A stretch of DNA of 64,000 nt from assembly GCF_009914755.1 (NCBI RefSeq), contig NC_060947.1. One strand, 5' to 3'. This document shows positions 9,377-9,645 of the stretch, in pieces. The stretch comes from the human T2T-CHM13v2.0 reference genome, Homo sapiens. Under the pieces are notes generated by a model that had not been told where the DNA came from, made no database searches, and worked only from the letters and a program-made list of their open reading frames with translations. Made by a program: the position numbers and the translations under genes. Every line of letters begins with the position of its first letter. The stretch's first letter is position 1.

Positions 9377-9645
9377 GAGAAGAGGGCACAATTGTGACAC
9401 TCGCAGGCCTGGAAGAGGCAGAAATGCTTGTGGCCCCTGATTTGGGCAGTGATACCCAAATGGTTGTGGCAGCGGTCACAGCAACCTATAGCTCTTCTGG
9501 GGCCAAGTTCAGTCCCCCATGGGGCTCCAGTCTGACGCCCTGTGGTGCGTTCAGAGTCAGAGGGGCAGCAGGGTGCAGCGGGTATTTATTTGTCCTCAGT
9601 ACATCCATAGGGAAATGGAGGTTCAGACACACGGGATCCATGCTT
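9377..9645 (-). pseudogene. Vestigial DM-domain (zinc module) exon of DMRTC1
   Basis: Minus frame reads TELGPRRAIGCCDRCHNHLGITAQIRGHKHFCLFQACECHNCALFS*, homologous to DMRTC2 TELIPRRAISRSPTCARCRNHGVTAHLKGHKRLCLFQACECHKCVLIL. The donor reads ATGAGT; the ancestral ATG (9641) is out of frame. Confidence 0.88.

What the first reader, a model, noticed from the sequence alone, without database searches (positions are those of the whole stretch)
9586..9645. Exact 42-bp copy of DMRTC1's own intron inserted just after the ancestral start codon
Seen in sequence: 9590-9631 (ttgtcctcagtacatccatagggaaatggaggttcagacaca) is identical to 8019-8060, 1.57 kb away in the same orientation, where it lies in a MIR-like intronic stretch. 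On the minus strand the copy sits right after ATG GAT CCC G (MDP, cf. DMRTC2 MEPSDMPA). Downstream the DM frame resumes as TAA ATA CCC GCT (*-I-P-A). The ATG at 9641 is out of frame with the DM module and opens a 51-codon ORF ending at 9486. Removing the 42 bp alone does not restore the frame, so an additional ~1-nt indel is implied. Inference: a locally templated insertion (template switch or polymerase-theta end joining) hit the start of the DM exon. Perfect identity suggests it is young or homogenised, and it may have left a uORF that dampens DMRTC1 translation.
Basis: partly seen in the sequence, partly recalled or inferred. Interest (0 to 1): 0.72.

Follow-up and report, generated by a model that had tools for sequence, protein, structure and literature searches.

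The report
Repair-copied patch in a dead exon
A short stretch copied from a nearby intron sits just after the old start codon of the abandoned DNA-binding exon of the human DMRTC1 gene; it is likely an ordinary DNA-repair scar of a known kind, likely landed after that exon had fallen out of use, and so probably has no effect.

Summary
The 42-bp match (9590-9631 = 8019-8060, same strand, 1,571 bp apart) is real and occurs only here and in the mirror palindrome arm. The paralogue DMRTC2 fixes the direction: the intronic copy is ancestral, the exonic copy is the insert. Lemur, squirrel and treeshrew orthologues start M-[ED]-P-K-[ED]-I-P, so the human sequence is best read as a 41-nt insert (40 copied bases plus one G). 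The last 2 nt of the 42-mer are microhomology, and the TAA is a likely Glu-to-stop substitution. The insert alone explains the frameshift; no extra indel is needed. This matches published proximal repair-mediated duplications (Pace 2009). The uORF idea is weak: ATG 9641 is the ancestral start, and it is intronic in the RefSeq transcripts given, because the exon's donor is dead. Perfect identity only bounds the age to under about 7% divergence. None of the four named simian DMRTC1 models has a DM domain, so the exon was probably already dead. No primate DNA was available to order the events. Verdict: new member of a known kind, probably neutral.

The parts
9592..9632 (-). Inferred insert, 41 nt: 40 nt copied from the intron (9592-9631) plus one G at 9632 that does not match the donor (filler base, or a copied A later changed to G)
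   Evidence: Minimum-cost junction models, two tied at cost 2, both net +41 with no deletion; frame check
9590..9591 (-). 2-nt microhomology (AA) shared by the donor and the recipient's inferred Lys-4 codon; it is why the visible match is 42 nt
   Evidence: Lys at position 4 in 7 of 7 listed lemur, squirrel/marmot and treeshrew proteins
9590..9631 (+). 42-nt exact match, acceptor copy
8019..8060 (+). Donor copy, in the intron between RefSeq exons 8332-8465 and 7389-7449; ancestral, colinear with the DMRTC2 intron; part of an old dispersed repeat (MIR by recall)
9639..9641 (-). Ancestral start codon of the DM-containing DMRTC1 protein
   Evidence: Aligns with the DMRTC2 start and orthologue N-termini
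9586..9588 (-). TAA at ancestral codon 5, likely a Glu-to-stop substitution
   Evidence: Glu at this position in 40 of 43 DMRTC1-type N-termini, Asp in 3
9377..9645 (-). Relic DM exon, absent from the RefSeq transcripts listed; acceptor AG at 9647-9646 intact
   Evidence: annotation given with the finding
9375..9376 (-). Dead splice donor of the DM exon: AT where DMRTC2 has GT; followed by an 81-nt intron to the acceptor at 9296
9457..9459 (-). Extra Leu codon inside the DM zinc-binding module, absent from all 13 aligned relatives; position approximate
   Evidence: sequence
9486..9641 (-). 51-codon out-of-frame ORF from the ancestral ATG through the insert; no Pfam match, no named homologue
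9138..9295 (-). RefSeq exon that follows the relic exon; holds the annotated start at 9201
   Evidence: Annotation given with the finding

Best explanation
A piece of DMRTC1's own intron is duplicated into the first codons of its relic DM exon, likely as a 41-nt patch made during germline double-strand-break repair, and likely after the exon had already stopped being spliced in, so it is probably neutral. Shown: the exact match, its uniqueness, the direction of copying and the dead donor. Inferred from orthologue proteins: a break between codons 3 and 4-5, net +41 nt, no deletion, AA microhomology. Inferred mechanism: a resected end annealed through 2-3 nt to the intron 1.57 kb away on the same chromosome or its sister, copied about 40 nt, released and rejoined the other end (SDSA-like repair-mediated duplication). 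The patch then either spread to the second palindrome arm by gene conversion or was already present when the arms formed.
For: Exact and unique. DMRTC2 aligns on both sides of a 42-nt gap at the exon and runs through the donor in the intron. All 43 DMRTC1-type N-termini that fit the search pattern have two residues between Pro/Ala-3 and residue 6, and the best junction models give +41. Pace 2009: 824 of 1,136 duplicons had the donor within 5 kb, peak near 1.2 kb, with microhomology of 2-9 nt, filler and no polyA; 'MH+filler' 5 of 39 and 'MH only' 2 of 39. For neutrality: the exon has a dead donor, a stop and an extra codon besides the insert; 0 of 4 named simian DMRTC1 proteins among the 120 listed carry Pfam DM, and the macaque model joins an upstream exon straight to the post-DM exon. 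DMRTC1 dN/dS across human, chimp and rhesus is 0.83, not different from 1.
Against: No non-human primate DNA was available, so the empty site and the order of lesions are not observed; the 41-nt figure rests on back-translating proteins. Missing DM in gene models is weak evidence of loss: Propithecus and aye-aye models also lack it while Microcebus and Lemur have it. The relic exon is 62 of 70 identical to Microcebus, higher than the live coding exons at 149 of 189, so it has not been dead very long. My posterior for an insertion older than 29 My ranges from 0.08 to 0.42 with prior and model. At 41 nt and outside a transposon it would not have entered Pace's screen.
Confidence: 0.75

Rival explanations
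1. The insertion was the founding lesion: it frameshifted a working DM exon in a simian ancestor, possibly creating the adjacent stop codon in the same error-prone event, and the donor decayed afterwards.
For: It hits codon 4 and frameshifts on its own. The relic has only about 5-7 amino-acid changes on the human line, giving about 32-44 My with wide limits, lower bound 12-19 My. P(age over 29 My) reaches 0.42 in one model. The stop lies 3 nt from the junction.
Against: Zero differences in 42 nt has probability 0.10 at macaque-level arm divergence (5.4%) and 0.015 at an assumed 10%. It must also precede the donor loss and the stop. The macaque model skips the exon.
Confidence: 0.12
2. The insert reshaped the ancestral ATG into a 51-codon upstream ORF that lowers DMRTC1 translation.
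For: The ORF exists, the ATG has A at -3 and G at +4, the acceptor at 9647-9646 is intact, and a candidate proximal first exon ends at 11492.
Against: The region is intronic in the RefSeq transcripts listed. Inclusion needs retention of the 81-nt intron or a cryptic donor, and such an RNA would carry 8 upstream ATGs, of which 2 come from the insert. Without the insert the same ATG would still open a 4-codon ORF. The selected transcript's first exon has its own ATG, which gives a 29-codon out-of-frame ORF if spliced as I infer.
Confidence: 0.05
3. Same origin as the best explanation, but made specifically by polymerase-theta end joining rather than SDSA-like strand invasion.
For: Short microhomology fits; TMEJ is proposed as a germline mutagen, with events enriched within the ~2 kb resection range.
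Against: Measured Pol-theta templated insertions are typically copied from within 30 bp, with first tracts rarely over 10 bp. The enzyme cannot be read from one junction. This rival overlaps the best explanation and is not exclusive of it.
Confidence: 0.2
4. Old similarity kept identical by gene conversion, a chance match between repeat copies, or an assembly error.
For: The donor lies in a dispersed repeat and the locus is in a palindrome with active conversion.
Against: No other genomic site comes within 3 mismatches; flanks share no alignable homology beyond a 6-nt word; DMRTC2 has no counterpart at the exon; both arms carry it.
Confidence: 0.03

Closest known systems
Proximal repair-mediated duplications, RDs (Pace et al. 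2009, PMC2671141)
   Same: Single donor on the same chromosome within 5 kb (1.57 kb; published peak about 1.2 kb), microhomology at the junction, at most one filler base, no polyA tail.
   Different: 41 nt is below their 50-nt cut-off; the acceptor is a relic coding exon rather than a transposon; the empty orthologous site was not seen.
Doublets, short paired duplications (Thomas et al. 2004; seen only as cited in Pace 2009)
   Same: A short exact pair under 100 bp, close together. Same-strand bias and about 1-kb spacing are recalled, not from a call.
   Different: Here donor and acceptor can be told apart, and the acceptor interrupts a former start region.
Polymerase-theta templated insertions, TINS (bioRxiv 10.1101/2019.12.20.882852)
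   Same: Direct-repeat copy with short microhomology.
   Different: Template distance (1.57 kb against about 30 bp) and tract length (40 nt against rarely over 10) are atypical.
DM-less DMRT8/DMRTC1 of human and mouse (Veith et al. 2006, seen only through citing papers)
   Same: Human DMRTC1 is already known to lack a functional DM domain.
   Different: I found no description of the individual lesions in what I could read; many other eutherians keep the domain.

Membership tests
Proximal repair-mediated duplication (Pace 2009) | Inserted sequence has one identifiable donor elsewhere in the genome | tested here: met
   4 genomic hits = 1 donor and 1 acceptor per palindrome arm; polarity from DMRTC2
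Proximal repair-mediated duplication (Pace 2009) | Donor on the same chromosome, more than 50 bp and less than 5 kb away | tested here: met
   1,571 bp
Proximal repair-mediated duplication (Pace 2009) | Junction microhomology, filler or small deletion | tested here: met
   2-nt microhomology plus 1 filler base, or a fully templated tie model; rests on an ancestor inferred from proteins
Proximal repair-mediated duplication (Pace 2009) | No polyA/T tail (not retrotransposition) | tested here: met
   Junction sequences
Proximal repair-mediated duplication (Pace 2009) | Empty orthologous site in a related genome | not testable with these tools
   No primate DNA held (no relatives). Indirect only: orthologue proteins and the paralogue lack the insert
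Proximal repair-mediated duplication (Pace 2009) | At least 50 bp and inside a transposon (the screen's working filters, not the mechanism) | tested here: not met
   41 nt, inside a relic exon; so it works like an RD but would not be in that catalogue
Doublets (Thomas 2004) | Short (<100 bp) identical or near-identical pair in close proximity | tested here: met
   42 nt, 1.57 kb; definition taken from the passage in Pace 2009, original not held
Pol-theta templated insertion (TINS) | Template typically within about 30 bp of the break, first tract rarely over 10 nt | tested here: not met
   1.57 kb and 40 nt
Pol-theta templated insertion (TINS) | Dependence on POLQ | not testable with these tools
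   Needs an experiment
Regulatory upstream ORF | ATG lies in the 5' leader of an expressed mRNA | tested here: inconclusive
   Outside all RefSeq exons in the annotation given, which speaks against; no RNA data available
Regulatory upstream ORF | Translated and represses the main ORF | not testable with these tools
   Needs ribosome profiling or a reporter

The most novel reading that the evidence does not exclude
A single repair event, a 41-nt patch copied from the gene's own intron with a stop codon created beside it, is what removed the DNA-binding domain from simian DMRTC1, turning an X-linked doublesex-family transcription factor that lemurs, squirrels and ungulates keep intact into the DM-less form, and the lesion was then fixed in both palindrome arms.
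Probability: 0.1. Interest if true: 0.5.

Novelty: new member of a known kind. Interest (0 to 1): 0.24.

Why it matters
As it stands it is a clean example of a common germline repair scar, with donor, direction and junction all readable, plus one more lesion in a DM exon already known to be lost in humans. It would matter more if primate alignments showed it was the first hit, because that would give a dated molecular cause for loss of DNA binding in DMRT8. The more useful by-product is that DMRTC1 keeps a DM domain in many eutherians, so 'DMRT8 lacks the DM domain' holds for some lineages only, and the loss can be ordered and dated with existing assemblies.

Tried and rejected
Extra 1-nt indel: rejected, since models with a deletion cost 3 against 2; the 1-nt gap seen against DMRTC2 comes from placing a 42-nt gap. 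Dating through proteins that read the insert: the 51-aa ORF gave 0 of 13 candidates at E<=10 among proteins of 91-2000 aa; the representative library gave 4 weak unnamed hits, E 7e-6 to 2e-4, that cover only 19-22 residues and look unrelated or repetitive. Proteins near 51 aa were not searched by name. Internal test of the MIR label against 8570-8720: score 42.5, equal to the maximum of 300 shuffles, so inconclusive. Dead against live exon rate: 7 of 64 against 19 of 130 polarised changes, Fisher p = 0.65, so no sign of faster decay; 2-3 of the 7 are probably not human-line changes. One search compared loci in the wrong orientation and was redone. Thomas 2004 and Veith 2006 could not be read. 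Structure prediction and RNA folding were not run as they do not bear on the question.

Full report
Observation. 9590-9631 and 8019-8060 are identical over exactly 42 nt, same strand, 1,571 bp apart. Of six exact direct matches of 25 nt or more, spaced 50 bp to 5 kb apart in the window, it is the longest; four of the other five look like Alu sequence by recall. The genome holds 4 copies within 3 mismatches, all exact, two in each arm of the DMRTC1/DMRTC1B palindrome; the arms are identical over the 3,601 bp compared.

Direction. The paralogue DMRTC2 on chromosome 19 aligns with both flanks of the exonic copy and shows a 42-nt gap there. It also aligns colinearly through the intronic copy, with one 2-nt gap. 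So the intronic copy predates the DMRT7/DMRT8 duplication and the exonic copy is derived. The donor region has 4 further dispersed matches at 78-87% identity, consistent with an old repeat; the name MIR is recalled.

True junction. The DM-frame relic finds intact DMRTC1 proteins in Microcebus, Lemur catta, squirrel and marmots at 81-89% identity (5 of 8 candidates). A wider search listed 120 of 126 hits. Of these, 43 non-DMRTC2 proteins fit my N-terminal pattern; position 5 is Glu in 40 and Asp in 3, and position 4 is Lys in all 7 lemur, sciurid and treeshrew proteins. The human bases after the insert read Lys, stop, Ile, Pro, Ala. Enumerating ancestral codons and break positions gives two best models at cost 2, both a 41-nt insertion with no deletion and a Glu-to-stop substitution. 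In one the G at 9632 is filler; in the other it is a copied A changed later. Leaving out 9592-9632 gives M-D-P-K-stop-I-P-A through to the exon end in one frame. This step is inference from proteins, not from an observed empty site.

Mechanism. Pace et al. 2009 (abstract and parts 1-3 of 7 of the text read) found 824 of 1,136 captured duplicons with the donor within 5 kb, a peak near 1.2 kb, microhomology of 2-9 nt, filler and no polyA tails, and attributed them to SDSA. They link these to the doublets of Thomas et al. 2004, which I could not read. This insert fits on distance, junction and tail, and fails only their working filters of 50 bp and location in a transposon. Polymerase-theta insertions are typically templated within 30 bp with tracts rarely over 10 nt (passages), so that enzyme is a less natural fit, although TMEJ within the 2-kb resection range is proposed for the germline (passages).

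Context. Human DMRTC1 is known to lack a working DM domain (passages, citing Veith 2006, which was not held). The relic exon runs from an intact acceptor at 9646 to a donor that reads AT where DMRTC2 has GT. It still scores on Pfam DM and also carries the stop and an extra Leu codon. The RefSeq exons given with the finding skip it. None of 4 named simian DMRTC1 proteins (two macaques, orangutan, douc) carries DM, and the rhesus model joins M-R-I-R to the post-DM exon. Tarsier, loris, sifaka and aye-aye models also lack DM, some being partial, so absence from a model is only weak evidence of loss. Jackson et al. 2021 (passages and supplementary tables S2 row, S6, S7; files 1 and 13 not searched) place the gene in palindrome P9 with two copies in human, chimpanzee and rhesus, and give dN/dS 0.83, not different from 1. 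The monotreme preprint instead counts one copy in rhesus. Presence in both arms therefore does not date the insert.

Age and order. With X-palindrome arm divergences of 0.84% (chimpanzee) and 5.4% (rhesus) (passages), 42 identical CpG-free bases have probability 0.70 and 0.10; the 95% upper limit is 7.1%. The posterior for an age over 29 My is 0.08-0.42 and for under 7 My is 0.03-0.42, depending on prior and junction model; the older part of the rate prior is my extrapolation. The relic exon carries about 5-7 human-line amino-acid changes, roughly 32-44 My of drift with very wide limits. It is more similar to Microcebus (62 of 70) than the live exons are (149 of 189), which argues against a very old death. 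Together the insert more likely followed the loss than caused it, but the ranges overlap and I give the founding-lesion reading about 0.1.

uORF. The ATG at 9641 is the ancestral start, not a product of the insert. It is intronic in the listed transcripts. An RNA that kept the exon and the 81-nt intron would have 8 ATGs before the annotated start, 2 of them from the insert. Searches with the 51-aa ORF found nothing meaningful. A candidate proximal first exon ending at 11492 leaves room for unannotated transcripts, so this is unlikely rather than excluded.

Literature. Searches for DMRTC1 (62 papers, 30 listed), DMRT8 with DM domain (20, 19 listed), DMRT8 with primates and stop codon (0) and palindromes with DMRTC1 showed no description of this insertion in the listings or passages I saw. 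The two primary DMRT8 papers were not readable and may describe it. The templated-insertion-polymorphism paper PMC5110952 was seen as a listing only.

Verdict. Real, well resolved, of a known kind, probably neutral. Interest 0.24.

Noticed in passing
P0001-P0120: DMRTC1/DMRT8 keeps a Pfam DM domain in lemurs, squirrels, treeshrew, carnivores, horses, pigs, cattle and whales, while simian and muroid models lack it; the blanket statement that DMRT8 has no DM domain is lineage-specific, and loss looks recurrent.
   Followed up: partly
window 12172-12314 and 12986-13128: A second direct pair, 143 bp, with a 30-nt exact core and otherwise diverged, 814 bp apart; an older local duplication or two fragments of one repeat family.
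   Followed up: partly
window 11490-11800, minus strand: CpG-containing candidate proximal first exon whose end is one base from encoding the M-R-I-R start of the rhesus model P0012; not among the human RefSeq exons listed.
   Followed up: partly
window 10295-10320, minus strand: Homologue of DMRTC2's small upstream exon is also decayed in DMRTC1, with both its ATG and its donor changed.
   Followed up: partly
L007 2650-2718 and 3086-3348: The distal first exon, 68 kb upstream in the FAM226A region, has its own ATG; spliced to exon 9295 as I infer it gives a 29-codon out-of-frame ORF, and skipping that exon gives the orangutan and macaque MPVDAH isoforms. A loris model splices a neighbouring stretch (MAGE-like by recall) on to the post-DM exon.
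   Followed up: partly
window 9568-9589 and 7997-8018: Donor and recipient share a 6-nt word just outside the 42-mer, offset by 2 nt; it may have helped the broken end anneal, or be chance.
   Followed up: no
window 13540-13723: 92-bp tandem duplication at 99% identity inside an Alu-like stretch.
   Followed up: no
window 46515 and 61842; 46745 and 62034: 29-nt and 25-nt exact matches 15.3 kb apart between FAM236C and a stretch near 62 kb, suggesting an unannotated diverged FAM236-like copy.
   Followed up: no
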